A stretch of 64,000 nt of DNA from Candidatus Iainarchaeum sp. (GTDB lineage Archaea > Iainarchaeota > Iainarchaeia > Iainarchaeales > CSSED10-239): assembly GCA_037441475.1 (NCBI GenBank), contig JBBISB010000001.1, positions 136,163 through 200,162 on the forward strand, in the 5' to 3' direction. Under the pieces are notes generated by a model. That model did no database searches and had not been told where the DNA came from. It worked only from the letters and a program-made list of their open reading frames with translations. Shown here one piece after another: positions 18,401 through 36,058 of this stretch (position 1 is the stretch's first letter; each line of letters starts with the position of its first letter). A program made the translations under genes and the position numbers.

Positions 18401-21400
18401 TATGAGGATTAAATTGATTATTCATGTTGTATGGAGTATTAAAGTTATTTCCTCCAAAGTAAGGATTATTGTATCCTGAGGAGAAGTTATTACCACCATA
18501 ATATTGATTATAGTTATTAAATCCTGAAAACCAATTACATGCAAGAGCAGGAACTGGTTGTTTAGGCATTTCTATACATTCAGCATAGTTGTTAACAATA
18601 ACCTCTAATGGAAGTCTTGCCTTAACTTCATCAACACCATTGATATTTCCTTTCTTAGATGTGAAATATATGGTTGGAGTCTTAATATTTGATGCTATTT
18701 TATAAGCTTTAAACTTTAATTGTAAAGTTGATTTTGCATTCTTTAAAAGAGAGGATAATATAGAAACTTCTTTTAAGTCTTCTAAAATATATTCTTTACC
18801 AGAAACAACAATAGATAAAACACCAGCTTCAGATTCATTACCCCAATCTGCCATAGCGTTAATAGATGTTAAATCAATTGCAATTTGTCTTGAGGTACAT
18901 TTATTCTCTACTGTAAAATCAAAAGTAACTGTTTTATCAGCCTCTGTTCTTATGGAAGCTGAACTTGGAAGTACTTTTAAACAATCTAAGGAATCAAGAG
19001 CATTTCCTAAAACAACTCTAACTGTTACTGGTATTGTAACAAGCCATGTCTTATTCATTTCTTCGCTTCTTATCCTGATTGCAACTTCGTTTTTAATAGT
19101 TTGTTGAGTATAAAGATTCATTCCTGCTTCTGTTAATGTAGCAGTTAAGGTTATATCATTTTGAGAGTTTCCATTTATGGTATAATTTTCAATATCTAAA
19201 GCTAACTTTACATATTGATTATCTAAGCTTTGAGATACAGAAACTATAGATAAAGGAACATATGCTTCGTTAAATAAACTAAAGTTATAAACTTCTCTAA
19301 CGTTTACTGATGAGTCTAAAGTTAAAGTTATTTCCTTAGGTATTGCAGTGATTAATTGATCATCAACAACTAAGGAGATGTCTTTCATCCTATATTCATT
19401 CTTTGTAACAATTATTCTAACAACATCCCCTAAGTCAGTTGCTGGAAGAACATAACCATACAAACCTTGTGAGTTTGTAAGAGATACAACTAAAGGATTA
19501 TTGTTTAATAAAATATTAACATTCGCACCATTTACTGGCTTATTACTATGATCAGTAACAGCAATCATTAAATCATTTGCTATAAATGGAATAATTTTTC
19601 TTGGTACCATTTCAACATACATTTCTTTAGCTTCCTTAACATCTATAAAAATGTTTCTTGAAAACACTTCTTGTCCGTTTGAAACTATTGAAATTGTAAT
19701 AACATCAGAAACATCATCAATAACCTTAAAATCAATATCTCCTGAAAGAATATCATTAGAGGTTAAAGATCCAATCTCTATATTTGAAAACTCATTTCCT
19801 CTTAAAAGATTACCTGTAACTGAGTTGATCATGTATTCTTTTAAAACAACTGAGGAACCTGTTGTTATTACCATTGTTGAATTAGGAGCAATCTTTCCTT
19901 CTAAAACATTTAAGTTAAATGAAAGTCTATAATCATTATTAATCTGTGCATTATATCTATCAATTATGTTTCTTGAAAGATTTGTTTGGTTGCTTGTTAT
20001 TGTAAAAGCATAACATAAAAGTGAAGAACATTGGTTCTGTGAACCAGTAAACAACATTGCTTGCTTTGTTTGTGCATATAAATTTTGTTTTGTATTTCCA
20101 GAAGTATAAGAGGTATCAACAGGTGATCTTACTATACTTGTACCCTCATAAAACTCAGCCCTATAGTTTAAAGCTTGGTTTATAAAAGCACTCTCTAAAA
20201 CAACAACATCAGCTTCAATTAAATAACTTCCTTCTAAAGGATTGTTAATGGTTAAGTTAAACCACTTTGCATTTCTTAAAGTCTTGTTTGAAAGATCAGT
20301 TGTTTGTCCTGAACATGGAGTGTATGAAGTTGATCCAATAGTTTCAGACTTAGCGTATCTTACTTCCTTAATAAATAAAGCATCCTCTAAAACAGTATAA
20401 GTGGTTGTACCACATACTGGGTTTGGTGCATTTCCTATTCTTAAGTGTGCTACAACTTTTGAAAACTTTTTAGTAACATTTAATGAATATCTAGCAGTTA
20501 CTTGCATACCTGGAGTTACAGAGTTTATTTTTTCTCCTAAAGCATTATAGAAACCTAAAAACTCAATACCTGATGTTTGTGAAATTCTTGATGGTAAAGT
20601 AAATGAAAGATTAACAATCTCATTTGCATTAATCTCATATCTTGAAGTTATAAATTTAGAATCAAAATTATCAATAACAAAGTATACTTGCTTATCTGCT
20701 CTTATCTTTATTAAAGTAAAACCCTCTGCGTTTGTAGATGTGGTTTTATCTGCTAAGATACTATCGTTTAAAGTATCATAAACATATACGTTTCCTTGGT
20801 AGAAATCCCCAAACTCAGTTTTTAAAGTTAAGTTAAAGGTTCCTTCTCCAATTGTCATCTTTATTACTTGTTCATTTATTTGTTGTTCAACAATTCTAAA
20901 TGGATTTGTAAACTCAGAAGTAAATTGTCCTTTAGATGAATCAAGCTTATATGTTCTACTTATATCTAAGTTTGTTAAAACAGCTTTACCATAAACATCA
21001 GCAGTTATTGTTTGAAGAATAATGTTTTCTTCAGCATCCCATAGTCTAATGGTTGCAAAATCAACTGGTTTAAGTAAATTATCTTGAACTGTTATAACAA
21101 GGCTTCTTAAGTTTTCATTAGTTATTGGGTTTAAAGAGATTTGTTTTACAGAGTCACTTATTCTTAAGTTATTCTCTGTTTTTAAAATATAATTAGGATT
21201 ATTAAAAACAACCTTGTAAGTTATGTTTTCTTCAACACCGAAATTTACAAGACCTTCTTTGTTTGAGATTAATGTTTTTACAAGTGTGCTTGTTTTGTAT
21301 AAAGAAACTGAAACATTTTCAATAGCTTCTTTTGTTTTAGAATCAATTACTTTAAATTTAAGTTGACCAATATATGCCTTTGTTAAAAGAACATCTTTAT

Positions 21401-22376
21401 TTTGAAGAGCTGAATCAACAATTGTTATTTGTATATTTTCAAGTTCTGTTATTGGTCTGTATCTATCATCATTATCATATATAACAACTCTGTATGTTCC
21501 TATTGTTATGTTTTCAAAAAGAACAATACCGTTTGTGTTTGTAGTTGCTTCTCTTACAACTTGACTTTGCATATTAACAATTGAAACACTAACATTTGAA
21601 ATTGGTGTTTTTAAATCATTATCTAAAACTTTAATCGATGCATTACCTGTTTTCTTTTCTGCAAAGCTTAACTCAACATCTCCTGATAAACCATCTTCGT
21701 TTACTGCAACAGAACCAACTGCATTAACTGTGGATGATTCTATTGAAACTTGTAAGTAACCACAATCAGCAGGTATGTCTGTTAAGGTTAAAGAACCGTC
21801 GTTTGTTAAAAGATTATTTTTTCTATAATTACTGTTATTTGAACAAGTGATTGTTGAAACTGTTAAAGGAGAATTATATAGTTCGTTATTTGATTTAAAA
21901 TATATTGTTTTTGAAACTGTACTAACTGTTAATTTAAGATAAACTGGATAGTTATTCTTTTTACTAAAGTTAATAGTTAAAGGAGTCTCTATTTGGTATT
22001 TAGAACTTTTAATACCTAAAGGCATTTCCTCTTTCTTAATACCAGTAACCTCTGCTATTCCTAAAGAGTTTGTTACAAGAAGTTTTGGAGAGTTGTTAAA
22101 TAATATTTCTAAACTCTCATTTGAGATTGGTTTATTTTGGGAGTCTACAAAAGTTAAAGAATAGGTCTGATCAGTAACAACTGAAGATCCAAATAATAAG
22201 AATGCTAAAAATACTATTAATAAAAGTATTATAAGATTGAATAATAGGAAGGTTGGAATTCCGTTCTTTTCTAAAGGATCTACAATTTTATATAAATTGA
22301 TTCCCTTTTTTTCTAATCTATCAAGAAATGCAAAGTATTTCTCTTCTTGCCTGTAGTAAAAAGATTTTAGACCCAT
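15411..22376 (-). CDS. Giant membrane-anchored surface protein (2321 aa) with the same N-terminal anchor module. Contains a ~130-aa N/Q/Y/G-rich low-complexity (prion-like) segment.
   Basis: N-terminus MGLKSFYYRQEEKYFAFLDRLEKKGINLYKIVDPLEKNGIPTFLLFNLIILLLIVFLAFLLF. Internal low-complexity region CNWFSGFNNYNQYYGGNNFSSGYNNPYFGGNNF..QGYRNPNYN..NMNCP at roughly nt 18160-18545. A YCDQEQFYDYL module related to YCDATQ of the paralogs. Confidence 0.85.
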   Translation of the reverse strand: MGLKSFYYRQEEKYFAFLDRLEKKGINLYKIVDPLEKNGIPTFLLFNLIILLLIVFLAFLLFGSSVVTDQTYSLTFVDSQNKPISNESLEILFNNSPKLLVTNSLGIAEVTGIKKEEMPLGIKSSKYQIETPLTINFSKKNNYPVYLKLTVSTVSKTIYFKSNNELYNSPLTVSTITCSNNSNYRKNNLLTNDGSLTLTDIPADCGYLQVSIESSTVNAVGSVAVNEDGLSGDVELSFAEKKTGNASIKVLDNDLKTPISNVSVSIVNMQSQVVREATTNTNGIVLFENITIGTYRVVIYDNDDRYRPITELENIQITIVDSALQNKDVLLTKAYIGQLKFKVIDSKTKEAIENVSVSLYKTSTLVKTLISNKEGLVNFGVEENITYKVVFNNPNYILKTENNLRISDSVKQISLNPITNENLRSLVITVQDNLLKPVDFATIRLWDAEENIILQTITADVYGKAVLTNLDISRTYKLDSSKGQFTSEFTNPFRIVEQQINEQVIKMTIGEGTFNLTLKTEFGDFYQGNVYVYDTLNDSILADKTTSTNAEGFTLIKIRADKQVYFVIDNFDSKFITSRYEINANEIVNLSFTLPSRISQTSGIEFLGFYNALGEKINSVTPGMQVTARYSLNVTKKFSKVVAHLRIGNAPNPVCGTTTYTVLEDALFIKEVRYAKSETIGSTSYTPCSGQTTDLSNKTLRNAKWFNLTINNPLEGSYLIEADVVVLESAFINQALNYRAEFYEGTSIVRSPVDTSYTSGNTKQNLYAQTKQAMLFTGSQNQCSSLLCYAFTITSNQTNLSRNIIDRYNAQINNDYRLSFNLNVLEGKIAPNSTMVITTGSSVVLKEYMINSVTGNLLRGNEFSNIEIGSLTSNDILSGDIDFKVIDDVSDVITISIVSNGQEVFSRNIFIDVKEAKEMYVEMVPRKIIPFIANDLMIAVTDHSNKPVNGANVNILLNNNPLVVSLTNSQGLYGYVLPATDLGDVVRIIVTKNEYRMKDISLVVDDQLITAIPKEITLTLDSSVNVREVYNFSLFNEAYVPLSIVSVSQSLDNQYVKLALDIENYTINGNSQNDITLTATLTEAGMNLYTQQTIKNEVAIRIRSEEMNKTWLVTIPVTVRVVLGNALDSLDCLKVLPSSASIRTEADKTVTFDFTVENKCTSRQIAIDLTSINAMADWGNESEAGVLSIVVSGKEYILEDLKEVSILSSLLKNAKSTLQLKFKAYKIASNIKTPTIYFTSKKGNINGVDEVKARLPLEVIVNNYAECIEMPKQPVPALACNWFSGFNNYNQYYGGNNFSSGYNNPYFGGNNFNTPYNMNNQFNPHNTYQAGQGYFTQQQGYRNPNYNLVGQFGYAGPQASTVNPYNFPTAQYQNTFGNYNSYNFMSGYPQDNYGNMGMSNNMNCPVRPFYIKNNCLEGVTIKLDASYGVTITSDAEFSLEPGESKETTILGGESMGTFNIPVNVKPSLVNKANYRLVGNVPVSVTLPISFMPSKCIQVTPQKLDFSNILDPKYQMVKVMNTCFADGYRLVEVSYLDLMDLDFDGVSFLTVGEMQGKIQPIKVDTFTELTTNKPIEYWEIALRRNPEIKNTVSAKEYLNKYSQYSLAAGIVSSFRKILIDVEDTVNLKFVLQVGLQPPHGQSSLIYNNVGMQLTDNFQWLILDNKDNWDLIKQFTDENVTDEDMMFVDTSVKLTYTLDSENKAVMIHVPENQLTADKFKRMDQETEVTRCFFGYVKDFPLNGIKDTSYINDNGTYYLKDTYNPLKVSIRFLKPTRHIFKLCFTRPVDSFNNVLAVNSKITIYDLFKEGQTSNINKVFELWASSENQKAKLESHISIGVSTAVSDRSIDGSVTPTADGETIATGALKCLAPDLSSNLGQTGLEAYNDYGFDKILFEYDSSKITATSCDNMYCDQEQFYDYLQKKVVGLDSLKDTSKYVKLGDIYFEKDWQTIKRSDIKVDFCGDGDVCEDFNRQGKETLQSYIDEAVKLLNSIPQELREITIIKTKGLEYNPSGDYLAVVTIGDYQYTTAEYFLNNLHNKFSNDNQRAEVYANMEVYFGSSPQVFTSSLKKFGQTNDPLNVNILNTYNSSTVVKTYEFTYERAMNVSKPGVYLIHASQGVGKNVVIKIRSLVRALPDEYNKNILFSMPINPRYTMSKSNTLYNAPFLSGIYNVTDYSSTDTIQDGYIFSFKDMANYTFIDSRPFYFNKPYNFKIVQTNNNTDLKVLNNMNRLFLLKDKTSLQVALYANPQINNGDTKNVTAFTKTVVSNNFMIYNLVMNNVEPKLTYNTMNDVFKEIPTGNVCFNISGNNPELLLWHNPDKFK

Positions 22377-22580: not shown

Positions 22581-24257
22581 TTATTGAGCAACACACCCTG
22601 CTGTCCCTGGTAACCCTGCTTCGTAACTTTTACATCTCCATCCTGATGTCAGAGGATTATTTAAAATTACTTGGTTTTGAAAATATCCTGGGGTTCCAAA
22701 GCTAAATGTTTGAGAAGGATTAAAAAAAGAATAACTTGCATAATCATCTTCTAATTGCACATAGATATTTTTATAATCTTCTGCAAGGATATATCTTTCA
22801 TCCTGGTCTTCAAATTTAAATAAAATATTTATTTTTTCTATTTTGCTACACTTTAAATTAAAATTTTTATTATCTTGAGAAATATTAGTAGGGTCTCTTA
22901 AAATAAAAATATTATTATCATTATTTAAAGAAAGTCCAATATTTGAAGCTTTATTATATTGTAATGGATTAAAAATTACAGGTGTTATTGATGAGTCCCC
23001 TTGAATACCTCCAGCAGAAGGTTCTGATAAAACCTCTTTTGTGACTTTTGAAACATCAATTACACTTACATTACAGATATTTAAACCATTTTGTGAAACA
23101 ACAGAGTTTCTACACACCCCAATACCATCATTTACTGATTTAAGGTTATTTCCTGCATAGATTTGTACTGGTGTTCTTGCAGAAACATTATTTTTAATAG
23201 TTGTCTTAACAAGATCTTCAAAAACAGGTTTTAAATTTTCTGATGTTTGAAGAGAATAACTATTATTTCCTGAAAGATTAATATTTGTACCAACTACAGT
23301 ATACCCTCCGCCGTTGTTTGCCTTAACTCCTGAAACTGATGTTGGTTTTGTACAAACATCCGAAAAATAATTTTTATTAGTAGTAATAAAAAGATCTTCT
23401 CTTAACCCACAACTATCAATATCACAAACCCCAAGCTTTGCACTGTTTAAAGTGTAATGGATGTATGGGTTAAAGAAACCTTGAGAGGTTGAAGAACGAT
23501 TTAATATTTCACTTTGATCTTTTTTTTCGAGCTCAGCATCAAGAGCAAAGTTTCTAACAGTCCTCATAGCTTGAAACCCTCTCCAAGGAATATATATCTT
23601 ATACTCTCTTCTTGCAAAAACTGGTCTTTGAATAACCTCATCATTTTGATTTCTTTTAACAACAATCATTGGAAGTTTTTCATAGTCCTCTGCAGATAAG
23701 TTTCTAGTGTCTATTGTAAAATATAAAGTTCCTAAACAATTTACACTATTCTGCTCACAATCAACAACTTTTAACTTATTATCTCCTGCTGCAACAAAAG
23801 AAGCTTTAATAATTCTAGATAATTCTATTTTATCATAATCAGGAACTTGAATACCATACCCTATAGGTGGGTTTGTATATAATAAACTACTTATAACGTT
23901 TTGTGCAAAGAAATTTTCAAATTGATTATCAAAAAAAATATCATCTGCATAATATTTTACAAAACTATCCCAATCAAGCATCACTTGTTCTCTTTGAATT
24001 TTAATTTGATTATCAGGGTTACTTCTAAACTTTATCCATTGTTCTCTAAAAGAAACAACAAAGTTATTAAAAGCATCAGCTCTTGAAATATCTGCAATAG
24101 TAATTAGATCAGAAGTTCTTGATTGATCATCAATTAAGGATAAATAGTTTTCTTCGGTCTGTACCATGTTATATACAAAAACAATTGTTATGGAAAGTAG
24201 CATTAAAGAGATTAATGCTGTAAAAAGATTAAATCCTTTTTTGTTTTTTATAAACAT
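22581..24257 (-). CDS. Prepilin-like protein (558 aa) with a class III (type IV pilin-type) signal peptide, embedded in the giant-protein cluster.
   Basis: N-terminus MFIKNKKG|FNLFTALISLMLLSITIVFVYNMV: short basic leader, Gly, then a ~22-aa hydrophobic helix, matching the archaeal PibD/FlaK and bacterial prepilin peptidase substrate pattern. The rest is a large Cys-containing globular region. ATG start. Flanked by 204-nt and 257-nt intergenic spacers. Confidence 0.6.
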   Translation of the reverse strand: MFIKNKKGFNLFTALISLMLLSITIVFVYNMVQTEENYLSLIDDQSRTSDLITIADISRADAFNNFVVSFREQWIKFRSNPDNQIKIQREQVMLDWDSFVKYYADDIFFDNQFENFFAQNVISSLLYTNPPIGYGIQVPDYDKIELSRIIKASFVAAGDNKLKVVDCEQNSVNCLGTLYFTIDTRNLSAEDYEKLPMIVVKRNQNDEVIQRPVFARREYKIYIPWRGFQAMRTVRNFALDAELEKKDQSEILNRSSTSQGFFNPYIHYTLNSAKLGVCDIDSCGLREDLFITTNKNYFSDVCTKPTSVSGVKANNGGGYTVVGTNINLSGNNSYSLQTSENLKPVFEDLVKTTIKNNVSARTPVQIYAGNNLKSVNDGIGVCRNSVVSQNGLNICNVSVIDVSKVTKEVLSEPSAGGIQGDSSITPVIFNPLQYNKASNIGLSLNNDNNIFILRDPTNISQDNKNFNLKCSKIEKINILFKFEDQDERYILAEDYKNIYVQLEDDYASYSFFNPSQTFSFGTPGYFQNQVILNNPLTSGWRCKSYEAGLPGTAGCVAQ

Positions 24258-24514: not shown

Positions 24515-27500
24515 TTAATTTGCTTTAACAGGGTCAATACATTTGTCAACTCTTAAAACATCTGTTAAAGCTATTATTGAAGGAGCTTGAGAGTTGTAAG
24601 GTCTTACATCAACAATATATCTTGACTTATACTCTTGTGAACTTTCAGGAGCAAGATAATCTACCTCTGTTATATAGAAGATATTCTTTTCAAAGACAAT
24701 AGGTGTTTTAATCTCAATTGAGCTATTAAGACCAGTCATACCTTTATCTCTTAAACCATTAATACCAACTATGTTACCCGCAATTCCACAACCAAGTCCT
24801 CTTAAAAATCCACCAGCACCTCTAACCCACTTTAGTTTACTTGAAGCAGTTGGTACTTTTGAACCGCTTATCTTTGTAAAGTCATCTATAACTTCGTCAG
24901 GAACTAAATAATTTCCAGCACCATCAGGAGCTAAACTACTTATCTTAATACTCATTGCTTCTAATGAAGCTTTTTGTGCTTTTGCATCAGCTAGTTTAGT
25001 TTTTAATGAAGCTAAGTCTGATGATGCTTTTCTAGATGCTCTGTCCACAGCAGTAATTTTATTAGGGTCTGATTTTACTTTTTTAGGATTAAAAGAAGAT
25101 CTTGCATTATTTTTTTCAAGATCAGTAATCTTTCTTTCTAAAACTTTAATTGAGTCATCTGCTTCTTTTATTAAACCTTTCTTAGAATCACCTATTGTGT
25201 CTAAAAGATTATTTAGTGAAGCGTCATCAATTACATTAACTGTACTTGTAGTTGTTGTTCCAGGTCCAGCTCCTGCTGCAACACTTCTGTCATAACCTTG
25301 TAACTTAGATAAATAGCCATTATTTTTGGTTAGACTATTAACTGCATCAACTTGACTTAAATGTCCTGATGGATAAACTCCAGAATGAGGAAATTGACTT
25401 CTTGAAACAACTTGTAATAAATCATCTAATTGAGCACTAGTTATTTTTGAATAATTAATTTTTGCGTTTGCACCACTTCCTGATATTACATCTGGATTAT
25501 TCATCAAAGCCTCAATTACATTATCTGCTATTCCAGTAGTATTAGTAAAGGATGTCGGAACTTGATTAAAATATATTCCTGCTGATTGAACATTATTTAC
25601 TGTAACCATTTGAGGGGATGAAAGATAATTATTTGAAATAACTTTAATATAATCATCTAAAAAATTTATTGCCTTTTCAGAAGGTGCTCTAGGTCTTACT
25701 AAATTAGGGGTTGTTCCAGGTGTTGTAGTTGTTACTGTTTGAGATACAAAAGGATCATCACCTAAACTTATTGTTGCCTCTCCAAGATTTAATGGAGTTG
25801 CAGCAGCAGAAGATCCTGCCTTAAAAGAACCTGCCATTACAGATCCAACAATTCCTGTAAACCACTCTTCAACCTCTCCAAACAAAGGACCTAAAAACTT
25901 AAGTTCAGGTTCATTAAATAACCATCCTAAAAACTTATCAATAAGCCATCCTAAACCGCCCTCTCCACCTGTTAAAGCAGATGCAAAGATTTGAAGAGCA
26001 GGAAGACCACATGAAAAGCCTAAACAATCAATTCCAATACCTGCAATAGATACTGGCATTAAAACTGCTGACAAACCATAACAACCAGCACAAGTTGCAG
26101 AACATCTTAAGAAATACTGTCCAGCATTGTTTAAGCCTTTATTTATTTTCGAGGTTGTCTTTTGTTCAGGGTCCTTTAAATCACAACCAAGTTGTTCATA
26201 GTTATAAAAGAAATCTCCATTATACTTTCCAGAGTCCATAACCTTTTGTAAAGTAGAACACATCTCTTCTTTTTCAGCAGCATTATACTCTTTCTTCCAA
26301 TCAACTAAGGCAGTGATGTTAAGAGGAAGATTTTTATCTTCATCTTTTTTATTATTCTCTAAAAGAATATTATTATAAACTTCTAAAAGATATTCAGAAG
26401 GAGTTATAGCACATGAAGCTAAAGTAACCTCTGCAATTGCACTCCTGTTACCAATAGTACCATCAGAAGAATAAATACTTGTAGCTGTAACAGTTGCTTT
26501 TTGACCAACCAAAGTATTCATTTCAGAGGGTGTTAATGGAGTTACACACATAAAAAAATTATTATCTTGGTTTTGAAGAACAGAAAGGCTAAGAGGCTCT
26601 TGAACACCATCATCTTTATTTTTCTTAAAACCAATAGTGCCACCAGGAACTTGTGTTGATGAAATTTTTAAAGTCTCATCCATTGATGATTTTATTTTCA
26701 TTAAAGTACAAGAAGATGTTTCTTGTAAAGTTAAAGAAACTTCCTTTTCAGTAAAAGCTAAATCTCCAGCCTTAACTAAATCAAGGATAAGCATATATGT
26801 TTGATCTTTAGAAACACAAACCTTTGCACTATAATCGTTCTTTGTTATCATTGAGCTTATAACATTTACAAACTCTCTTCTTACCTTGTCAGGAGTTAAG
26901 CCATCTGCTGTTTGATATTGACTATTAAGAAGAACATTTATTTGTTCAGGGTTTGCTTTTTCATAAACTTGTTTATCATTAAAAGATATTTTTGCAAGAG
27001 CATTTTTATTTTCAGAAATAACACCTGAAGAAACATTTAAGGTACTGTTTCTTGTAGATAAAACATCTCTATTGTAAACATATCTTAAATCTACTTGATC
27101 TGTCTTAAACTTACCTACACCCTTGATTAAGTCTTTTGAAATATTTTCATCACCAGTAAACAAAGTAAGCCATGTTCCTTGTCTATTGTTTTTATCTAAA
27201 GTTAAATCCCATGGAAGGAAGTTTAAATAATTCATTATCTTTTTATCACAGTGAGAAGTTTTTTCATACTTTAAAACATTTATGAAATAATATGCTCTCT
27301 CTGGATAAATATAATCAGGAGAAGCTGCTATAAAACCATCAAGCTCAATTGTGTACTTACCACAACCACTCAATTGATTTGAAACAAACACTTTATTTCC
27401 ACCAGCATAAACACCTAAAGAAGTATTCCCTGCACTATTAAATGGATTTGTTTCAACAAAGTAATTTTTAAAACCATAATTTGATTTTGAAAGAATAGCT

Positions 27501-30500
27501 CTTACAAGCTCAGTAGAGACTACATCATTTTGCATATAGAAAGTAAACTCAATTGGCTCAACATCTCCACCAAGCTCTGATATCTTACAATACCCTCTTG
27601 CAGCATCAACTAGAGGACATCCTGTGTTCATTGTCTTTGCTTGTGCTTGAGAAGACATTTGTTTTATTTGGTTTTGAAGTTCACTTACCTTCTTTAAAAT
27701 ATACTCTGTTGAAGAAACAGCATCACAGTAACCTGATTCTTCAGAACATGCACCAATTGAGATTAAAGGTCTACTTAAGGTTGTTGTTTCTTTTAAGTCT
27801 TCACAAACTGGAAGAGAAGAATTTATTGTAACAATATTATCTTTAGCTTGATCTTCAAAGACATCTTTGATATTTATAGAAACTGTAAAGTCCTCTGAAG
27901 TTACAGGATTACCAGAGTTAAGTAATCTTCCTATTATTACCATTGGCATTTTAGGAGAGCCACCTAAAGAGCTTGCTGTAAGCTCTAAGCTATAGGTTGC
28001 TGATTGATTAGGGTATATTAAATTATTACCAGAGGTTGGAATTATTCTAAAAGGATTAGCACCAAAAGTCTCTGTATAACCATCTTGTTTTTTATCAATA
28101 CCAACAACAGAAACTGGTTCTGCACAGTAGTTTGTTAAGGTAATGTTTCTTGCTCTCTTTTCTCCAACCTTTAAAGTATAATCTAAATTTTTATTACTTA
28201 CCTTCAAACAGTTAGGAGAGGAGATTGTAAAAATAATCTGGGTGGTTGCTGTTATTGGGTTATTAATACCAGCAGCTTTTCCAGTAACTAAAATAAATGC
28301 ATTATCAGCAGTTGATTTATTTATATTAACTGTAAACTGTAAATCAATAGGTATTGATGCACCAGGCTCTAAAACAGATACCTCTCTAGGATATTCTTTA
28401 ATACCTATGTTTGAAGATACCATCTTAGGATATTGACTTATCTGTATATCTGTTATTGGAACTGTTCCTATATTTTTAATCATGAACCTTGTTGCATTAA
28501 CAGCAGATTGCTGAGGATGAAGTTGTGAGATTGGAACCTGTATTAATGTAGGCATTATCCATAAAGCCTTACTTAGATCTAAAAGATCAACATTTAAAGT
28601 TGATGGGGAAACAGAGTATAAGCTGTTATGCCATAGGATATTATAAGTAAATTTTCTTTGTTGTTTAAGGTTTGATTTATTTTTAATAATAACATCATAA
28701 ACCTTCTCTTCTCCTGGAAGAACAGTTACATGAGCAAGGGAAAGCTCTAAACCATTGTTTGAAGCTGAGGAGGTTAACACTGATTGTGGAGTAAAGGTTA
28801 TAGCTTGTGAACAGTTGTTTTTAATAATAAAGAAAGTAGTATTTTCTGTACTCTCTGTTGTTGAATCTACTTTTGAAGAATAGTAGGTATAATAGTTAGG
28901 ATCTGTATAGTTTACAGTATTCCTTGAAGAAGAATAATTTTGAGTATAGTTTTGAGATGCTAAATAATCTGAGTAATTGGAGTAGGTTTGAGAAGGTGCA
29001 AGTAAAAGATTACTTCTTTGTGTATTTCCAGCATAATTGTAGTTTGTGAAAGGAGTGTTATACACATTTGGTGCAGTATACTTAAGGTTTAAACCTACAA
29101 AGGAGTTAACTGCATTTGGAGTTATCTCAATACAGTCGCTAACCAAAAGACCTTTGTTTATCCTAATAGGGACAATCTTTGTAATCTCTCTAGGACCAAT
29201 GGTTGCATAGATAGGAACATTTGCAAATGCTGTTTCAAACAATATATCTTTTGATACAGTGATTACAACCTCGTAGTTTTGAGAGGAATTTTTATTAATA
29301 AAAGGATTACCTCTAATATCTATAAAGATTTTATCAGATCCATCAACCCAGACTGGTTCTCCAAACCTGATGTTAGTTGCTTGGTAAACACCGTTGTTTT
29401 GTAAAGTAAATCTTGAAGAGGAGGTTATCTGGTCAAGACCAAGATTGATTAATACCTCAGGAGGTGTTAATGTTAATAAAGAATCATCAACTATGAAAAT
29501 TTGTTTTTTATAAGGAACATAACCATAACTTTCAACTAAGACGTTTACAGAGGAGACATTAAATTTATTTTCAATAGTATAGTTTCCATTTCTACCATTA
29601 CTTCCCTCTCCCTTAACTGAGGAAATAAAGGCTCCTCTATCATCATAGAAAGAGATGAATGCATTTTCAATAGGTTTTAAAGAAACTGAATCAATAACCT
29701 CTATATTAAACTTAGAACCGTATGAAACAAAGATATCAGGTGTAAAAATAACCTTCATTTCTTTTTTATCAAAAACATTAAAGCTTAGTCTATCATTAAA
29801 GACTTGAGAACCTAAGATAGCATCTGTTCCCTTAAGATCAATGTATGCTGTTCCTATCTCCTTTGAAATAAATGTTAAATAAATTTTCTTTAAACTGTTT
29901 TGGTTTATTGAAAGATTATCCCTTACTGCTTCAAAGTTTGAAGAATCATAAGTTGTGCTTTGGTTATTTAGAGTATCTGTAAAAAGATTAAAGGAGATTA
30001 AAGGAAAGCTCTTTGAAGTTTCAGCTAAAAGATTTAACTGTGAGTTTTTTAAAGAATAGATGCTTGTTTCAAGAGAGTAGTTTTCTCCTTTAATAGCATA
30101 AAAGTCTTCAATATTAAACTCATTATCTTTTGAGTCAATTATCTTATAAGAAACACAAACATCACCAGAACAATTTAAAGGAACATTGAAAAGATCAATT
30201 GAAACTTCTTTTGTTTGTGCATAAAGAGCTCCCTTAAGATTATTTGAATAGTTTTGTTTTAAAGTTGTATCAATAGGATCTCTATAGTAAAGTTTATTTT
30301 CTTCAATCAATGCCCTGTACTTAAAGATTAGTTTTGTAACAGACATATCAACTGCATTAACCTTAACCTTTATTTGTTTGTTTCCTAAAGGAACATCTGA
30401 AGCCCATTTAAGCTCAAGCCATTTATTTATTATCTGTGAAGAACCTTCATTAAGAGAGTCAATACCTTGCATTCCCGGGGCAGGCTCACTATTATAAGTT

Positions 30501-32605
30501 GTCCCATATTTAAAGTTAGTTATGTCCATTGCAGAGAAACCAGTAATACCGTAACTCATTAGTTCTGAATCTGTTTGAGTATCATCACCAGCTCTGATAT
30601 GCACTTCTCCTTTATATGTTTTTTCAGGGAAAAGAACATCAAAAACTAAATAGTATTCTTTGTCTGTTGTTAAGTAGTTTGTTTTAATACCTTTAGAGTC
30701 AACCACACCTGCAAACTCAATTACAGGGTAATCAGAGTAGTTAACTTGTTTGTTTAAATCAAGTCTTAAGTAACCACCATTATCTGCTTGGTCTGCTGAA
30801 AAGTTAATAACAGATTTATTTCCATTCTCGTCTGTATATTCAGCAATTAAGTCCTTGTAACCTTCTGTGTTAAATATTATTTCTTCACCTAAAGAAATAT
30901 TTCCATCAAAAAGAACAGTTCCATCTTTTGTTCTTATTAAAAGATTTCCTGAAGTTATTTTCATTCCGTTTTCATCATAAAAATCAAGTTTTATCATTTT
31001 TGAAGCATTATCAACAACAAAGATGATTTTATTTTCTCTTAAAGGATTTATTTTTATATTTTCAAAAACTTCTGTTTCTCCAACCATGGCATAAACCCTG
31101 TAGTCCTTGTTTACTCTTAAAGGTAAAGCAAAAGAACCTGTTATGTCTGTTTGAAGAGAGGTGTTGTAAGGAACTTCTACTTCTGTTTCTGGATTGAAGT
31201 TTATAAGTTCATAGATTTTTAAAAAAGCTTTTGTTACTGGAAGATTTTTTTCATCAACAACAAAGATATTAAGTATTGCACTATTTGAAACATCTATTCT
31301 TTCTAAGATAAACTCAGCTTTTGTTGTTTGTCGTAAATCTACTGTTTGATTTTCACAAAAATAATCTACTTTACATGCTGTTATTAAGATTGGTTTTTCA
31401 GAGGTTATTCCTTTAAAGCTTATTTGACCTAAAGCATCTGTTTTTCCAGAATCAATAACTGTGTTATCTTTATTATATAATGTTATTAAAACATCCTCTA
31501 AAGAAAAGAAATTTGTTTTTGATTTAGTTGAAATATCAATAAAGTTTCCACCAAGCTCTAAGACAACAATAAATGTTTCTTCAGAGTTGATTATTCTTAA
31601 GGAAATGTTTTCATCACTTATAGCTGTTCTGTAACCTTCCTTTTTAACCCTGTAAGAGATTGTTTCTCCAGTGTCTATGTATGCTAAGGCCTTACCATCT
31701 ATTGTTTTTTGATTTGCAACCTCTTCTCCACCTAAATTAAAGATTAAAACTTCTGCATTATCAATTACTTTTTGAGAAGTGTCTAAGACAACAAAGGTAA
31801 CTATGCTTTTTCCTTCAAAGGAAAGTGAAGAGATATCCATCTCAATAACTTTCTCTTGTTCTTTTGAAGTTATTCTATAGTTTGTTTCTCTATAGTCTTC
31901 ATAACCATCTGCCTTTATTAAAATTTCTAAATCTTTGTTTAAAGGTACTTCTAAGGTTATAAAATGATTTTGATATTGATTTACAATTCCTTCTTTACTT
32001 TCTTGTCTATTGTTAATAGAGAAGTTAACTTTTGCAGAGCCTGCAGGAATTGTTTTTCTATTTTCTCTATCTATTAGTTTAATTTTTAAAACTCCATACT
32101 CTATTGATTCTGTAAAAACAATTGAGATGTTTTGTTTCTTCTCTGTAATGGTTATAACTTTTGTAAAGTCAGGGTGTCCTGCTTTTGTTGAATAAAAGGT
32201 ATATGATTCTCCTAACTTAAGTTTTATTTTTTTAGAAAAACCATTTTCAATAGTTCCTTTAAAAACATCTTTATCTTTGCTTGATATTTTTAAGTAAACA
32301 TCAGATAATGAGTTTCCTTGATAATCAGTAACTGAAAAAGTCAAGGTTGATTGGTTTGAGAAAGAAAAGAAAATTAAAAAGATTATTATGAAAAGTAATA
32401 ATAGTAAAATAGATGCAACAATTGCAAAGGCAGGTAAACCTTTTTCTTCTAAGTAATTATTAAAATCGTTTAGAGGGATTCCTTTTTCTGAAAGCCAGTT
32501 TGAGGTGCTTGCATATTTATCTTCAAGATAATTATAGACCCTTGAGAAAATATTTTGTGAACTGCTTTCTTCTGATGACGCCATATTTTTCTTTTCTTTA
32601 ACCAT
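24515..32605 (-). CDS. Giant membrane-anchored surface protein (2696 aa) and first gene of the cluster. The C-terminal ~600 aa combine glycine-zipper-like hydrophobic segments with a coiled coil.
   Basis: N-terminus ..FSRVYNYLEDKYASTSNWLSEKGIPLNDFNNYLEEKGLPAFAIVASILLLLLFIIIFLIFF (conserved motif plus TM). Ectodomain of carboxypeptidase-regulatory-like beta repeats and Y/N-rich stretches. C-terminal region has CSATCAGCYGLSAVLMPVSIAGIGIDCLGFSCGLPALQIFASALTGGEGGLGWLIDKFLGWLF, a heptad-like stretch IKEADDSIKVLERKITDLEKNN..LASLKTKLADAKAQKASLEAM, and WVRGAGGFLRGLGCGIAGNIVGINGL. Confidence 0.85.
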   Translation of the reverse strand: MVKEKKNMASSEESSSQNIFSRVYNYLEDKYASTSNWLSEKGIPLNDFNNYLEEKGLPAFAIVASILLLLLFIIIFLIFFSFSNQSTLTFSVTDYQGNSLSDVYLKISSKDKDVFKGTIENGFSKKIKLKLGESYTFYSTKAGHPDFTKVITITEKKQNISIVFTESIEYGVLKIKLIDRENRKTIPAGSAKVNFSINNRQESKEGIVNQYQNHFITLEVPLNKDLEILIKADGYEDYRETNYRITSKEQEKVIEMDISSLSFEGKSIVTFVVLDTSQKVIDNAEVLIFNLGGEEVANQKTIDGKALAYIDTGETISYRVKKEGYRTAISDENISLRIINSEETFIVVLELGGNFIDISTKSKTNFFSLEDVLITLYNKDNTVIDSGKTDALGQISFKGITSEKPILITACKVDYFCENQTVDLRQTTKAEFILERIDVSNSAILNIFVVDEKNLPVTKAFLKIYELINFNPETEVEVPYNTSLQTDITGSFALPLRVNKDYRVYAMVGETEVFENIKINPLRENKIIFVVDNASKMIKLDFYDENGMKITSGNLLIRTKDGTVLFDGNISLGEEIIFNTEGYKDLIAEYTDENGNKSVINFSADQADNGGYLRLDLNKQVNYSDYPVIEFAGVVDSKGIKTNYLTTDKEYYLVFDVLFPEKTYKGEVHIRAGDDTQTDSELMSYGITGFSAMDITNFKYGTTYNSEPAPGMQGIDSLNEGSSQIINKWLELKWASDVPLGNKQIKVKVNAVDMSVTKLIFKYRALIEENKLYYRDPIDTTLKQNYSNNLKGALYAQTKEVSIDLFNVPLNCSGDVCVSYKIIDSKDNEFNIEDFYAIKGENYSLETSIYSLKNSQLNLLAETSKSFPLISFNLFTDTLNNQSTTYDSSNFEAVRDNLSINQNSLKKIYLTFISKEIGTAYIDLKGTDAILGSQVFNDRLSFNVFDKKEMKVIFTPDIFVSYGSKFNIEVIDSVSLKPIENAFISFYDDRGAFISSVKGEGSNGRNGNYTIENKFNVSSVNVLVESYGYVPYKKQIFIVDDSLLTLTPPEVLINLGLDQITSSSRFTLQNNGVYQATNIRFGEPVWVDGSDKIFIDIRGNPFINKNSSQNYEVVITVSKDILFETAFANVPIYATIGPREITKIVPIRINKGLLVSDCIEITPNAVNSFVGLNLKYTAPNVYNTPFTNYNYAGNTQRSNLLLAPSQTYSNYSDYLASQNYTQNYSSSRNTVNYTDPNYYTYYSSKVDSTTESTENTTFFIIKNNCSQAITFTPQSVLTSSASNNGLELSLAHVTVLPGEEKVYDVIIKNKSNLKQQRKFTYNILWHNSLYSVSPSTLNVDLLDLSKALWIMPTLIQVPISQLHPQQSAVNATRFMIKNIGTVPITDIQISQYPKMVSSNIGIKEYPREVSVLEPGASIPIDLQFTVNINKSTADNAFILVTGKAAGINNPITATTQIIFTISSPNCLKVSNKNLDYTLKVGEKRARNITLTNYCAEPVSVVGIDKKQDGYTETFGANPFRIIPTSGNNLIYPNQSATYSLELTASSLGGSPKMPMVIIGRLLNSGNPVTSEDFTVSINIKDVFEDQAKDNIVTINSSLPVCEDLKETTTLSRPLISIGACSEESGYCDAVSSTEYILKKVSELQNQIKQMSSQAQAKTMNTGCPLVDAARGYCKISELGGDVEPIEFTFYMQNDVVSTELVRAILSKSNYGFKNYFVETNPFNSAGNTSLGVYAGGNKVFVSNQLSGCGKYTIELDGFIAASPDYIYPERAYYFINVLKYEKTSHCDKKIMNYLNFLPWDLTLDKNNRQGTWLTLFTGDENISKDLIKGVGKFKTDQVDLRYVYNRDVLSTRNSTLNVSSGVISENKNALAKISFNDKQVYEKANPEQINVLLNSQYQTADGLTPDKVRREFVNVISSMITKNDYSAKVCVSKDQTYMLILDLVKAGDLAFTEKEVSLTLQETSSCTLMKIKSSMDETLKISSTQVPGGTIGFKKNKDDGVQEPLSLSVLQNQDNNFFMCVTPLTPSEMNTLVGQKATVTATSIYSSDGTIGNRSAIAEVTLASCAITPSEYLLEVYNNILLENNKKDEDKNLPLNITALVDWKKEYNAAEKEEMCSTLQKVMDSGKYNGDFFYNYEQLGCDLKDPEQKTTSKINKGLNNAGQYFLRCSATCAGCYGLSAVLMPVSIAGIGIDCLGFSCGLPALQIFASALTGGEGGLGWLIDKFLGWLFNEPELKFLGPLFGEVEEWFTGIVGSVMAGSFKAGSSAAATPLNLGEATISLGDDPFVSQTVTTTTPGTTPNLVRPRAPSEKAINFLDDYIKVISNNYLSSPQMVTVNNVQSAGIYFNQVPTSFTNTTGIADNVIEALMNNPDVISGSGANAKINYSKITSAQLDDLLQVVSRSQFPHSGVYPSGHLSQVDAVNSLTKNNGYLSKLQGYDRSVAAGAGPGTTTTSTVNVIDDASLNNLLDTIGDSKKGLIKEADDSIKVLERKITDLEKNNARSSFNPKKVKSDPNKITAVDRASRKASSDLASLKTKLADAKAQKASLEAMSIKISSLAPDGAGNYLVPDEVIDDFTKISGSKVPTASSKLKWVRGAGGFLRGLGCGIAGNIVGINGLRDKGMTGLNSSIEIKTPIVFEKNIFYITEVDYLAPESSQEYKSRYIVDVRPYNSQAPSIIALTDVLRVDKCIDPVKAN

Positions 32606-32823: not shown

Positions 32824-33159
32824 TTATTTAGAGTTTGAAACTCTAATAATTGCAACTATTGAAACAATTAATGCTGCTGGTGCTACAAAGTAAACAAGGT
32901 TTACTAAGATCCCTCTTAAGACATCTCCCACAACAGGAATTGCATTAATTGAGTTACTGGTTGCTATAAATGTTATTGAGGCTATTAAGAAAAGAGAGAT
33001 ATTTCTATCTTCAATGTTTAAAAGACCAATAACAAGACCTAATACTATTAAAACAGTTGAAAGCCATACAGGGTGACTTATACCATAGATAAGTCCAAAA
33101 ATAATTGAAAGTAAGATACCACCAAGGAAAGCAAAAGCTCCTATTTTTTCAAGTTTCAT
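32824..33159 (-). CDS. Small integral membrane protein (111 aa, 3-4 TM)
   Basis: Hydrophobic throughout (FAFLGGILLSIIFGLIYG.., VLIVLGLVIGLL.., AALIVSIVAIIRV). No recognisable family. Confidence 0.5.
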   Translation of the reverse strand: MKLEKIGAFAFLGGILLSIIFGLIYGISHPVWLSTVLIVLGLVIGLLNIEDRNISLFLIASITFIATSNSINAIPVVGDVLRGILVNLVYFVAPAALIVSIVAIIRVSNSK

Positions 33160-35635: not shown

Positions 35636-36058
35636 TTAATTACTTGCTCCACCTATTGATGTTACTACAGGACCTTCATTTATTATTACAACATTATTTG
35701 CTGCAGCACAATAAGATGAAGATGGATATTGTTTCAAAATTAATCTTAAATCAAAATTCTTAGAAGTATGCCCTACAATACTTGATGGAATTGGACCTAT
35801 GAAAATACCATTTGTAAGTTGTGTTTGCATTCCTTCATAATTATAACAACCTGATTTTCCAACAGCATAATTTTGTACAGCAGCTACTAAAAAATAAGAA
35901 TTATTGCCTGGATTTGTAAGATTTAAATCTCCTGTAACCTTATAGATTGTTGGAAGACTTCTTGTTGTTACATTAGCAGAAACATTAAAACTAATTAAAA
36001 TAACTAAAGCCAATGTTAAAAATATAAAACTTAATTTATTAAATTTCAATTTAATCAC
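35636..36058 (-). CDS. Small secreted protein (140 aa)
   Basis: Signal peptide MIKLKFNKLSFIFLTLALVILISFNVSA, 4 Cys, no recognisable family. Confidence 0.5.
   Translation of the reverse strand: MIKLKFNKLSFIFLTLALVILISFNVSANVTTRSLPTIYKVTGDLNLTNPGNNSYFLVAAVQNYAVGKSGCYNYEGMQTQLTNGIFIGPIPSSIVGHTSKNFDLRLILKQYPSSSYCAAANNVVIINEGPVVTSIGGASN

What the first reader, a model, noticed from the sequence alone, without database searches (positions are those of the whole stretch)
32440..32605. Conserved cytoplasmic N-terminal motif preceding the TM anchor in four of the giant proteins
The N-termini of CDS 10256..15370, 15411..22376, 24515..32605 and, more weakly, 30..7310 align. Examples are MGLK(K/S)FYY.xE(D/E)(R/K)Y(Y/F).F(V/L)(E/D)R.. 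and a repeated (L/S)EK(K/N)G(I/L)P element just before the hydrophobic helix (LEKKGINLYKIVDPLEKNGIPTF, SEKGIPLNDFNNYLEEKGLPAF, TGPLDKKFPLTSF). The same motif recurs at the start codons of paralogs at 15370, 22376 and 32605. A conserved cytoplasmic tag on otherwise divergent giant ectodomains suggests a dedicated sorting or insertion signal, or a docking site for a cytoplasmic partner, rather than a generic signal anchor.
Basis: seen in the sequence. Interest (0 to 1): 0.6.

Follow-up and report, generated by a model that had tools for sequence, protein, structure and literature searches.

The report
Conserved cytoplasmic tag on giant archaeal proteins
Giant membrane-anchored surface proteins of two phyla of tiny symbiotic archaea all begin with the same ~43-residue, almost invariant intracellular tag just before their membrane anchor; no database or paper I could search describes it, and it probably docks these proteins to shared cell-surface assembly machinery.

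Summary
Three giant proteins in the window share an N-terminal module, Y-x3-EDK[YW][YF]-x3-D-x-L-x2-KG[IV]P[VL]Y-x3-D-x2-E-x2-[GN]IPSFP. They are P4 (15411-22376), P3 (10256-15370) and P6 (24515-32605). A roughly 22-residue hydrophobic helix follows the module directly. P1 (30-7310) keeps only a degenerate remnant. A fifth tagged giant lies just left of the window.

An exhaustive profile search finds 891 protein clusters with the tag. In the 150 listed it sits almost always at residues 1-10, and most full-length members are 1300-3600 aa. A DNA-pattern scan of reference genomes returned 119 loci before hitting its cap, and all 119 are true instances. Every informatively named archaeal record is Iainarchaeota/Diapherotrites or Micrarchaeota (DPANN).

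The tag changes far more slowly than the ectodomains. It has no match in Pfam, NCBIfam, the PDB or the searchable literature.

In related genomes, tagged genes lie in a conserved island. The island holds a pilin-like protein and, often, a FlaI/TadA-type ATPase and a short archaeosortase-family gene.

My best reading, at moderate confidence, is a cytoplasmic docking and assembly handle for a multi-subunit surface apparatus. The rivals are a dedicated targeting signal, a mechanical anchor and a cleaved leader. I judge it a new variant of a known kind.

The parts
32552..32605 (-). P6 N-terminal extension (aa 1-18, MVKEKKNMASSEESSSQN), lying upstream of the tag
   Evidence: similar acidic or basic extensions occur in P6-type homologues P0062, P0093 and P0099
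32426..32551 (-). P6 tag (aa 19-60, IFSRVYNYLEDKYASTSNWLSEKGIPLNDFNNYLEEKGLPAF). This is a diverged copy: the residues aligned to consensus D19, Y29 and D33 are all Asn
   Evidence: independent HMM E=4e-12; coordinates
32366..32425 (-). P6 hydrophobic anchor helix (aa 61-80)
   Evidence: family-wide, the uncharged stretch after the PSF motif has a median of 28 residues
24515..32605 (-). P6, a 2696-aa giant protein with Ig-like and macroglobulin-like domains
   Evidence: its ectodomain shows no BLAST similarity to P1, P3 or P4
22248..22376 (-). P4 tag (aa 1-43), the most canonical copy in the window
   Evidence: independent HMM E=1.5e-22; AF2 model predicts helix 2-23, helix 29-37 and a TM helix 42-65, with pLDDT 77
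22191..22247 (-). P4 anchor helix (aa 44-62)
15411..22376 (-). P4, a 2321-aa giant protein (CarboxypepD_reg, SdrD_B, SpaA and bMG3 domains)
15260..15370 (-). P3 tag (aa 1-37). This short variant lacks five residues of repeat unit A and ends in ..DKVMPSF
   Evidence: independent HMM E=1.4e-9; the same short variant recurs in many other genomes
15203..15259 (-). P3 anchor helix (aa 38-56)
10256..15370 (-). P3, a 1704-aa giant protein
   Evidence: 23% identical to P4 over about 1300 aa
7203..7310 (-). P1 degenerate tag remnant (aa 1-36). It keeps only the two ..IP.. units and has lost the YxxxEDKYY helix
   Evidence: E=0.076 and not detected; distant full-length homologues carry canonical tags, and L070:611 is an intermediate form
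30..7310 (-). P1, a 2426-aa giant protein
22581..24257 (-). P5, a 558-aa protein with a class III (type IV pilin-like) signal peptide (KKG|FNLFTALISL...). It is a conserved member of the cluster and sits directly upstream of P4-type genes
   Evidence: [KR]GF[TN]LFTAL is conserved across homologues; found in 34-39 of the related loci
7328..10222 (-). P2, a 964-aa secreted protein with an ordinary signal peptide and no tag. Its C-terminal ~630 aa are homologous to the C-terminus of P1

Best explanation
The tag is a small folded cytoplasmic module made of three elements:
- an amphipathic helix carrying Y-x3-EDKYY-x3-D;
- two tandem D-x-L-[DE]-x-KG-IP-x-[YF] units;
- the membrane anchor, which follows directly.

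It stays attached to the protein and leaves the giant Ig-domain ectodomain outside the cell (a type II, N-in anchor).

I propose that the tag is a docking and assembly handle. In this view it holds the four to six paralogous giant proteins of one gene island together, or ties them to a common membrane or cytoplasmic partner. The most likely partner is the type-IV-pilus-like machinery encoded beside them in related genomes. The result would be one multi-subunit cell-surface apparatus used for cell-cell contact.

Shown here:
- the sequence conservation;
- the position at the extreme N-terminus;
- the hydrophobic helix that follows;
- the restriction to giant proteins of two DPANN phyla;
- the conserved gene order and the neighbouring gene families.

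Inferred, not shown:
- the N-in topology;
- that the tag is retained after insertion;
- that it binds anything.
For: 1. Purifying selection on the tag far exceeds that on the rest of the protein.
- P4 orthologues that are 31-39% identical overall keep tags that are 65-76% identical.
- P0018 and P0019 match P4 only through the tag, at 3-4% coverage.
- Near-invariant charged and aromatic residues point to a specific binding surface rather than a generic flank.

2. All paralogues in a genome carry the tag, even though their ectodomains are unrelated or only 22% identical. The window genome has P6, P4, P3, a remnant in P1, and a fifth giant at L122 20213-26602.

3. Distinct tag flavours are each conserved across genomes and keep the same gene order. 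They are the P6-type Y[SN]DF[FL]E..G.P[SA]F, the P4-type KGINLYK..DPLEK.GIPTF, the ..AIE..NIPSFP type and the P3-type DPIDKVIPSF. This fits fixed, non-interchangeable positions in an assembly better than one generic signal.

4. The predicted structure is helix-turn-helix-turn-TM at pLDDT 77. Helix 1 is amphipathic, with muH about 0.4 and a heptad-like stripe L3/Y7/L10/Y14/F17/L21.

5. Gene context links the tagged genes to surface-assembly machinery.
- A pilin-like P5 lies directly upstream of tagged genes in at least 35 loci.
- A FlaI/TadA-type ATPase is present in about 18 loci.
- An archaeosortase-family gene is present in about 28 of 119 loci.
- In L045 the ATPase, a 768-aa membrane protein with a weak T2SSF match, a small pilin-like protein and a tagged giant all run in the same direction.

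6. Several features support an extracellular ectodomain and a cytoplasmic tag.
- The ectodomains carry Big_1, CarboxypepD_reg, SdrD_B and SpaA domains, 16-28 Cys and 31-48 N-x-S/T sequons.
- The N-flank is less negative than the C-flank (-0.6 against -1.65).
Against: - No partner has been identified, and no interaction has been modelled or measured.
- The window itself has no ATPase or archaeosortase-like gene within 31 kb upstream of the cluster. There is also none in the 10 kb read beyond its left edge.
- Co-location in other genomes may reflect only a shared cell-surface theme.
- The tag is net acidic (K+R 5.2, D+E 7.2). That is unusual for a cytoplasmic flank, so the topology assignment rests mainly on the nature of the ectodomain.
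- Strong conservation would also be expected of a dedicated targeting signal.
Confidence: 0.4

Rival explanations
1. Dedicated targeting or insertion signal. In this view the tag is an extended n-region that controls how very long nascent chains reach or engage the translocon. It would work like the N-terminal extensions of signal peptides on giant bacterial surface proteins (ESPR, YSIRK, KxYKxGKxW). It may also fix the N-in orientation by folding before the anchor emerges from the ribosome.
For: - The tag sits at residues 1-10 in almost all listed hits, directly before the hydrophobic segment.
- It is tied to very large proteins. Of the sequences held, 105 are at least 1300 aa, and 7 of the 8 ORFs that end inside the GTDB loci are 1600-2608 aa.
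- The tag lacks the usual positive n-region, so ordinary signal recognition may not apply.
Against: - Subfamily-specific tag flavours conserved across phyla are not expected of a single generic signal.
- No extra Sec or SRP component was seen in the neighbourhoods.
- There is no sequence relationship to ESPR, YSIRK or KxYKxGKxW.
- P1 has lost the first helix yet remains an intact 2426-aa ORF with its anchor.
Confidence: 0.25
2. Mechanical foot or self-association. In this view the amphipathic, Tyr/Trp-rich helix lies on the inner face of the membrane, or bundles with other tags. It acts as a stopper so that a single anchor helix is not pulled out when a 2000-3000-aa adhesin is under tension. 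No separate partner is needed.
For: - Helix 1 is amphipathic, with many interfacial aromatic residues (Y7, Y8, Y14, Y15, F17, W20).
- The N-terminal anchor is the only membrane anchor. None of 105 full-length members has a C-terminal TM helix.
- The first Ig-like domain begins within a few residues of the anchor.
Against: - Near-invariance of E11, D12, D19, D33 and E36 is more than membrane association needs.
- The net negative charge is unfavourable for binding a lipid surface without bridging cations.
Confidence: 0.2
3. Cleaved leader. In this view the tag is removed. One route is a prepilin-peptidase-like enzyme cutting after [GN]39 (..[KR]G|IPSFP + hydrophobic helix), which would make the giants pilin-like subunits. 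Other routes are signal peptidase cutting after the helix, or the neighbouring archaeosortase-like enzyme.
For: - The architecture resembles a class III signal: K/R at -2 in 58% of tags, G at -1 in 72%, then a hydrophobic helix.
- True class III proteins (P5 and small pilin-likes) and a FlaI/TadA ATPase are encoded alongside.
- An archaeosortase-family gene sits directly upstream of many tagged genes, and P-[ST]-F resembles the PGF and PEF motifs.
Against: - The -1 position is Asn in 26% of tags, and is missing in the P3-type.
- Pro at +2 is 96% conserved, which from my recollection is not typical of class III sites.
- The leader would be 39-43 aa, net acidic and almost invariant, unlike known leaders.
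- No prepilin peptidase gene was identified in any neighbourhood I read.
- By the positive-inside pattern of its loops, ArtX has its Cys, Arg and His at the outer face of the membrane, whereas IPSFP lies at the inner face (inferred from the sequences).
- The uncharged stretch has a median of 28 residues, which is long for a cleavable h-region.
- There is no conserved extracellular motif next to the membrane.
Confidence: 0.12
4. No specific function. The similarity would be only a remnant of common ancestry of the paralogues, or a compositional effect in an AT-rich genome.
For: P1, P3 and P4 are ancient paralogues along much of their length.
Against: - The tag is far better conserved than the rest of the same proteins, across two phyla.
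- P6 shares the tag but has no detectable ectodomain similarity to the others.
- The DNA pattern gave 0 matches in 2.9 million viral contigs but at least 119 true matches in archaeal genomes.
Confidence: 0.03

Closest known systems
Extended signal peptide region (ESPR, PF13018) of giant autotransporters and two-partner-secretion proteins
   Same: It is a conserved aromatic and charged N-terminal extension placed before the hydrophobic core, and it is found on very large surface proteins.
   Different: - There is no sequence match.
- ESPR is bacterial and belongs to double-membrane cells.
- ESPR precedes a cleavable signal peptide, whereas this tag precedes a long anchor helix.
- This tag is about 43 aa with an internal repeat.
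YSIRK-G/S and KxYKxGKxW signal-peptide motifs of Gram-positive giant adhesins
   Same: They are conserved N-terminal motifs that mark a defined set of large surface proteins and direct them to a dedicated route or site.
   Different: - There is no NCBIfam match.
- Those motifs lie in basic n-regions of cleaved signal peptides, whereas this tag is net acidic.
- No accessory Sec genes were seen nearby.
Class III (type IV prepilin-like) signal peptides of archaeal pilins, archaellins and bindosome proteins
   Same: - The leader is cytoplasmic, a K/R-G pair lies immediately before a ~20-residue hydrophobic helix, and large extracellular domains are possible.
- It is co-encoded with pilin-like proteins and a FlaI/TadA ATPase.
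   Different: - The leader is 39-43 aa, highly conserved and acidic.
- The -1 residue is Asn in 26% of tags.
- Pro is nearly invariant at +2.
Bitopic docking proteins of type IV pilus and type II secretion machines (the PilN N-terminal peptide that binds PilM; the GspL cytoplasmic domain that binds GspE). This comparison comes from my own knowledge.
   Same: They have a short conserved cytoplasmic N-terminal element, then a single TM helix, then an extracytoplasmic domain. The cytoplasmic element docks a cytoplasmic machine component.
   Different: - There is no sequence similarity.
- Those proteins are small structural parts of the machine rather than giant adhesins.
- No interaction has been shown here.
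PGF-CTERM / PEF-CTERM / PEP-CTERM sorting signals with their archaeosortase or exosortase
   Same: - A short P-x-F motif lies directly before a TM helix.
- A family-specific exosortase/archaeosortase-type gene sits next to the candidate substrate gene in about 28 loci.
   Different: - This signal is N-terminal rather than C-terminal.
- The motif lies at the inner rather than the outer membrane face.
- There is no basic tail.
- None of 105 full-length members has a C-terminal TM helix.
[quoted passage not shown] Forterrea multitransposorum (PMC5905446)
   Same: It is the same gene island in a related genome. L100 is CP045477.1, and P0003 is 63% identical to P4. The paper predicts a role in cell-cell interaction.
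   Different: The passages returned by my term search of that paper do not mention the shared N-terminal tag, its distribution or the neighbouring machinery.

Membership tests
ESPR (PF13018) | Match to the Pfam ESPR model at the N-terminus | tested here: not met
   No Pfam hit with E<=10 to ESPR for the four window tags or for six canonical tags
ESPR (PF13018) | Extension precedes a classical cleavable signal peptide in a Gram-negative autotransporter or TPS protein | tested here: not met
   The host is archaeal. The uncharged stretch has a median of 28 residues, which fits an anchor. No autotransporter or TPS domains are present
YSIRK / KxYKxGKxW signal peptides | Match to the NCBIfam/TIGRFAM signal-peptide models, with a basic n-region | tested here: not met
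   No NCBIfam hit. The tag is net acidic
Class III (prepilin-type) signal peptide | Short basic leader ending in G/A at -1 | tested here: not met
   The leader is 37-43 aa, net acidic and conserved. The -1 residue is G in 72% and N in 26% of tags, and is absent in the P3-type
Class III (prepilin-type) signal peptide | Hydrophobic helix of about 20 residues immediately after the cleavage site | tested here: met
   Columns 44-66 are hydrophobic; TM helix 42-65 in the model
Class III (prepilin-type) signal peptide | Cleavage by a prepilin peptidase | not testable with these tools
   This needs N-terminal proteomics or an in vitro assay. No prepilin peptidase gene was identified in the neighbourhoods I read
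Class III (prepilin-type) signal peptide | Co-occurrence with type IV pilus assembly genes | tested here: inconclusive
   A FlaI/TadA-type ATPase and pilin-like proteins lie next to tagged genes in many related loci. In the window only the pilin-like P5 is present
Archaeosortase/exosortase sorting signal (PGF-CTERM and relatives) | C-terminal tripartite signal: motif, TM helix, basic tail | tested here: not met
   0 of 105 full-length tagged proteins have a C-terminal TM helix. The P-S-F motif plus TM helix is N-terminal and has no basic tail
Archaeosortase/exosortase sorting signal (PGF-CTERM and relatives) | Cognate sortase-family gene in the genome, often adjacent | tested here: inconclusive
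   An ArtX gene (TIGR04178, 36-46 bits against a cutoff of 23) lies upstream on the same strand in about 28 of 119 loci. None occurs in the window or in L122
New family proposed here: EDKYY-GIPSF N-terminal tag of DPANN giant proteins | Profile match at the extreme N-terminus, followed directly by a TM helix and then a large Ig-domain ectodomain | tested here: met
   P4, P6 and P3 score E=1.5e-22, 4e-12 and 1.4e-9 with an independent HMM. Architecture. P1 does not meet this test

The most novel reading that the evidence does not exclude
The tag is the recognition handle of a previously unknown, dedicated pathway that sorts or assembles giant surface proteins in Iainarchaeota and Micrarchaeota. 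That pathway would be built from the co-encoded FlaI/TadA-type ATPase, its membrane platform, pilin-like proteins and the short archaeosortase-family enzyme. If so, this would be the first N-terminal, cytoplasm-facing sorting signal coupled to pilus-type or archaeosortase-type machinery. It would also be the molecular basis of the DPANN host-contact apparatus.
Probability: 0.18. Interest if true: 0.85.

Novelty: new variant of a known kind. Interest (0 to 1): 0.6.

Why it matters
DPANN archaea have tiny genomes yet spend about 5% of them on a handful of giant surface proteins. These proteins are thought to mediate contact with host cells (PMC5905446). How they are delivered, anchored and organised is unknown.

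A short, almost invariant cytoplasmic tag shared by all of them gives a concrete experimental handle:
- It defines the protein set in any genome. A 49-position profile recovers 891 clusters.
- It can serve as bait to find the partner machinery.
- It links the giants to pilus-like and archaeosortase-like genes, which had not been connected to them in any paper or database I could search.

It is also a candidate new Pfam/NCBIfam domain for proteins now named only 'hypothetical' or 'carboxypeptidase regulatory-like domain-containing'.

Tried and rejected
- Pfam and NCBIfam scans of the tags at E<=10 gave only chance-level hits.
- Word-indexed protein searches with tag alignments were nearly blind, returning 1 hit and 9 hits, all short proteins of 58-127 aa. 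The exhaustive profile search was what worked.
I replaced it with a hand-made degenerate DNA pattern.
- I looked for a small conserved cytoplasmic partner gene by clustering all ORFs of at least 70 aa in 119 loci. Only the pilin-like family, ArtX, the ATPase and antisense artefacts recur.
- I looked for C-terminal sortase-type signals in neighbouring proteins. There was no recurrent family.
- I asked whether the Micrarchaeota S-layer protein is one of these proteins. It is not: that protein is about 101 kDa with an ordinary signal peptide or TM.
- Literature searches for the motif strings and for DPANN giant proteins found no description of the tag.
- N-terminal extensions upstream of the tag (the fifth giant, P0158) gave no informative domain. 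The exception is a PLDc_N two-helix domain in P0158, which may be a mis-called start.
- The archaeosortase-cleavage idea was set aside on topological grounds. The class III cleavage idea was down-weighted because of N39 and P41.

Full report
**Context**

The window is AT-rich, at about 29% G+C. It carries archaeal genes: NurA, an intein-containing HerA-like ATPase, an XPD-type helicase and PEP synthase.

Its minus strand holds a tightly packed row of genes:
- P6 (24515-32605, 2696 aa)
- P5 (22581-24257, 558 aa)
- P4 (15411-22376, 2321 aa)
- P3 (10256-15370, 1704 aa)
- P2 (7328-10222, 964 aa)
- P1 (30-7310, 2426 aa)

P4's closest relatives come from 'Candidatus ainarchaeum' and from the complete genome of Ca. 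Forterrea multitransposorum (63% identity). The organism is therefore a DPANN archaeon of the phylum Iainarchaeota, also known as Diapherotrites.

P4, P3 and P6 begin with a shared motif, followed directly by a hydrophobic helix.

An HMM built only from tags of other genomes scored the window's ORFs as follows:

| ORF | E-value |
|---|---|
| P4 | 1.5e-22 |
| P6 | 4e-12 |
| P3 | 1.4e-9 |
| best unrelated ORF | 0.03 |

P1 is not detected by this model. It is still best read as a decayed copy, for two reasons:
- Distant full-length homologues of P1 carry canonical tags.
- An intermediate form exists in L070.

The finding's interval (32440-32605) covers P6's 18-residue N-extension and most of its tag (aa 19-60). 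It does not cover the anchor helix.

**Recent duplication does not explain the similarity**
- The four 5' regions align poorly at the DNA level.
- P3 and P4 tags are 54% identical in protein and 65% in DNA. Synonymous differences occur in 10 of 22 conserved codons.
- Outside the tag, P1, P3 and P4 are only 22-23% identical.
- P6's ectodomain shows no detectable similarity to the others.

**Extent of the family**

A 49-position profile was searched against 1.84 billion representative proteins.
- It found 891 proteins at E<=1e-3 and 232 at E<=1e-10.
- Among the 150 listed, the match begins at residues 1-10 in nearly all (median start 1.5).
- Of the sequences held, 105 are at least 1300 aa long, up to 3612 aa. 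The shorter ones appear to be fragments, but this was not checked for each.

A degenerate DNA pattern for the core of the motif was scanned against one genome per GTDB species.
- All 119 encode the full motif plus the hydrophobic helix, at the start of a long ORF.
- Seven of the eight ORFs that end inside their locus are 1600-2608 aa long.

Among the informatively named archaeal records, the names are Ca. Iainarchaeum or Diapherotrites and Ca. Micrarchaeota, including Norongarragalinales. The rest say only 'archaeon'. Three bins labelled as bacteria carry sequences nearly identical to Iainarchaeal ones and are probably mis-binned.

The same DNA pattern has no match in 2.9 million viral contigs.

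**Anatomy of the tag**

Conservation was measured over 211 tags that are less than 80% identical to one another.

| Position | Residue(s) and frequency |
|---|---|
| 7 | Y 97% |
| 11 | E 99% |
| 12 | D/E 99% |
| 13 | K 84% |
| 14 | Y/W 95% |
| 15 | Y/F 99% |
| 19 | D 97% |
| 21 | L 83% |
| 25 | G 94% |
| 29 | Y 96% |
| 33 | D 88% |
| 36 | E/D 98% |
| 39 | G 72%, N 26% |
| 41 | P 96% |
| 42-44 | S-F-P |

- Positions 19-29 and 33-43 are two copies of one unit, D-x-[LI]-[DE]-x-K-G-[IV]-P-x-[YF].
- AlphaFold2, given a 91-sequence alignment, predicts helix 2-23, helix 29-37 and a transmembrane helix 42-65, with mean pLDDT 77.
- Helix 1 is amphipathic.
- The tag is net acidic.
- The uncharged stretch after P-S-F has a median of 28 residues, which fits an anchor better than a cleavable signal.
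- The ectodomains carry domain families that are extracellular wherever they are known, together with many Cys residues and glycosylation sequons.
- None of 105 full-length members has a second, C-terminal TM helix.

Taken together, these points support an N-in, type II arrangement. That topology is inferred, not shown.

**Conservation relative to the rest of the protein**
- P4 orthologues fall to 31-39% overall identity but keep tags that are 65-76% identical to P4's.
- Two proteins of 2297 and 2724 aa were recovered by a full-length P4 query solely through the tag.
- Tag flavours are themselves conserved as orthologous groups and keep a fixed gene order across genomes. The order is P6-type, then the pilin-like gene, then P4-type or '..NIPSFP'-type, then P3-type '..DPIDKVIPSF'.

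**Neighbours**
- P5 and its homologues carry a canonical class III (prepilin-like) signal, [KR]GF[TN]LFTAL.... They sit 70-260 bp upstream of a tagged gene in at least 35 loci.
- P6-type and Micrarchaeota-type tagged genes are preceded on the same strand by a ~200-aa membrane protein. It passes the exosortase/archaeosortase signature model (TIGR04178, 36-46 bits against a cutoff of 23) and keeps the Cys, Arg and His motifs.
- A FlaI/TadA-type ATPase lies divergent from, or co-directional with, these genes.
- In L045 the ATPase is followed by a 768-aa membrane protein with a sub-threshold T2SSF match, a small pilin-like protein and a tagged giant.
- The window has only P5. No ATPase or ArtX homologue was found in it, and none was annotated among the genes called in the 10 kb beyond its left edge.
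- Beyond that edge the island continues with two secreted proteins and a fifth tagged giant of 2129 aa. In that giant the tag follows a cytoplasmic extension of about 125 residues.
[quoted passage not shown] Forterrea (PMC5905446). The passages my term search returned from that paper do not mention the tag.

**Interpretation**

Three things argue for a specific binding function on the cytoplasmic side:
- the near-invariant acidic and aromatic residues;
- the presence of the tag on every giant paralogue, whatever its ectodomain;
- the paralogue-specific flavours held over phylum-level distances.

I therefore favour a docking and assembly handle, at confidence about 0.4. It would organise the giants into one apparatus, possibly through the pilus-like machinery encoded alongside.

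The rivals remain open:
- A dedicated targeting or orientation signal, analogous to ESPR, YSIRK or KxYKxGKxW (0.25). The size correlation and N-terminal position favour it. The subfamily-specific flavours and the survival of the decayed P1 tag count against it.
- A mechanical foot or self-association module (0.2).
- A cleaved leader (0.12). Asn at the would-be -1 position, the invariant Pro at +2, the acidic conserved leader and the outward-facing active site inferred for the archaeosortase-like enzyme all count against it.
- Pure ancestry without function is contradicted by the data.

**Comparison with known systems**

The tag works most like the conserved N-terminal extensions of giant bacterial surface proteins, or like the short cytoplasmic docking peptides of bitopic pilus-machine proteins. 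It fails the sequence tests for every such family. It differs in charge, length, internal repeat and host lineage.

I found no description of the tag in the literature available to me. I therefore rate it a new variant of a known kind. It is an unnamed domain family that marks a defined set of DPANN giant proteins, and its mechanism is still to be shown.

Noticed in passing
Related loci, e.g. L107 396-1388, L099 260-976, L117 3439-4086, L061 1336-1941: A short (~190-220 aa) exosortase/archaeosortase-family membrane protein (TIGR04178 36-46 bits; motifs ISWLCxG, NxxRI, AHDxLFR) lies just upstream of tagged giant genes in about 28 of 119 loci. No neighbouring protein, and none of 105 tagged giants, has a C-terminal sorting signal, so its substrate is unknown.
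   Followed up: partly
Related loci, e.g. L045 5540-7840, L056 1413-3773, L042 3-1916: A FlaI/TadA-type (T2SSE) ATPase with a Cys-rich N-terminal extension lies next to the tagged genes in about 18 loci. In L045 it is followed by a 768-aa membrane protein with a weak T2SSF match and a 152-aa pilin-like protein.
   Followed up: partly
window 22581-24257 (-): P5 is a 558-aa protein with a canonical class III (type IV pilin-like) signal peptide. Its family is a fixed upstream neighbour of P4-type tagged genes in at least 35 genomes. It has no Pfam or NCBIfam match.
   Followed up: partly
window 30-250, 7328-7550 and 15411-15600 (C-termini of P1, P2, P4): These proteins share a C-terminal module, ..VF..I....VC[FVI]........[LFY][WY].NP... 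By eye it recurs at the C-terminus of many tagged giants in other genomes. In addition, P2's last ~630 aa are homologous to the C-terminal region of P1 (24% identity, E=5e-37).
   Followed up: partly
L122 17352-27281 (genome sequence beyond the window's left edge): The island continues with a 125-aa and an 816-aa secreted protein, then a fifth tagged giant (2129 aa) in which the tag follows a cytoplasmic extension of about 125 residues with no known domain, then small multi-TM proteins.
   Followed up: partly
window 51521-54043 (+) and 36915-37988 (-): A HerA-like ATPase is interrupted by an intein with a LAGLIDADG endonuclease domain. Its usual partner NurA is encoded 13 kb away rather than adjacent.
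   Followed up: no
L020, L074, L116: Contigs assigned to bacterial bins (Falkowbacteria, Chloroflexota/Chloroflexi) carry tagged giant genes and ArtX genes nearly identical to Iainarchaeal ones. They are probably binning errors in public MAGs.
   Followed up: partly
e.g. L028 5975, L099 1124, L107 2231, L114 4989, L069 7688: P6-type tagged genes often appear to start with TTG or GTG (LISEKL or VISEKL where others read MISEKL). Automatic gene calls may therefore truncate or miss the tag.
   Followed up: no
window 32824-33159 (-), 33588-34049 (-), 34404-35621 (-), 35636-36058 (-): In the window the genes upstream of P6 occupy the position that ArtX takes in relatives. They are a 111-aa three-TM protein, a 153-aa protein with weak, sub-threshold matches to DNA-binding helix-turn-helix domains, and two secreted proteins of 405 and 140 aa with no family match.
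   Followed up: no
window 38100-39005, 40432-40989, 45243-46421: An M48 peptidase, a LemA protein and a DUF2207 membrane protein lie within 8 kb of one another. I did not examine whether they are linked.
   Followed up: no
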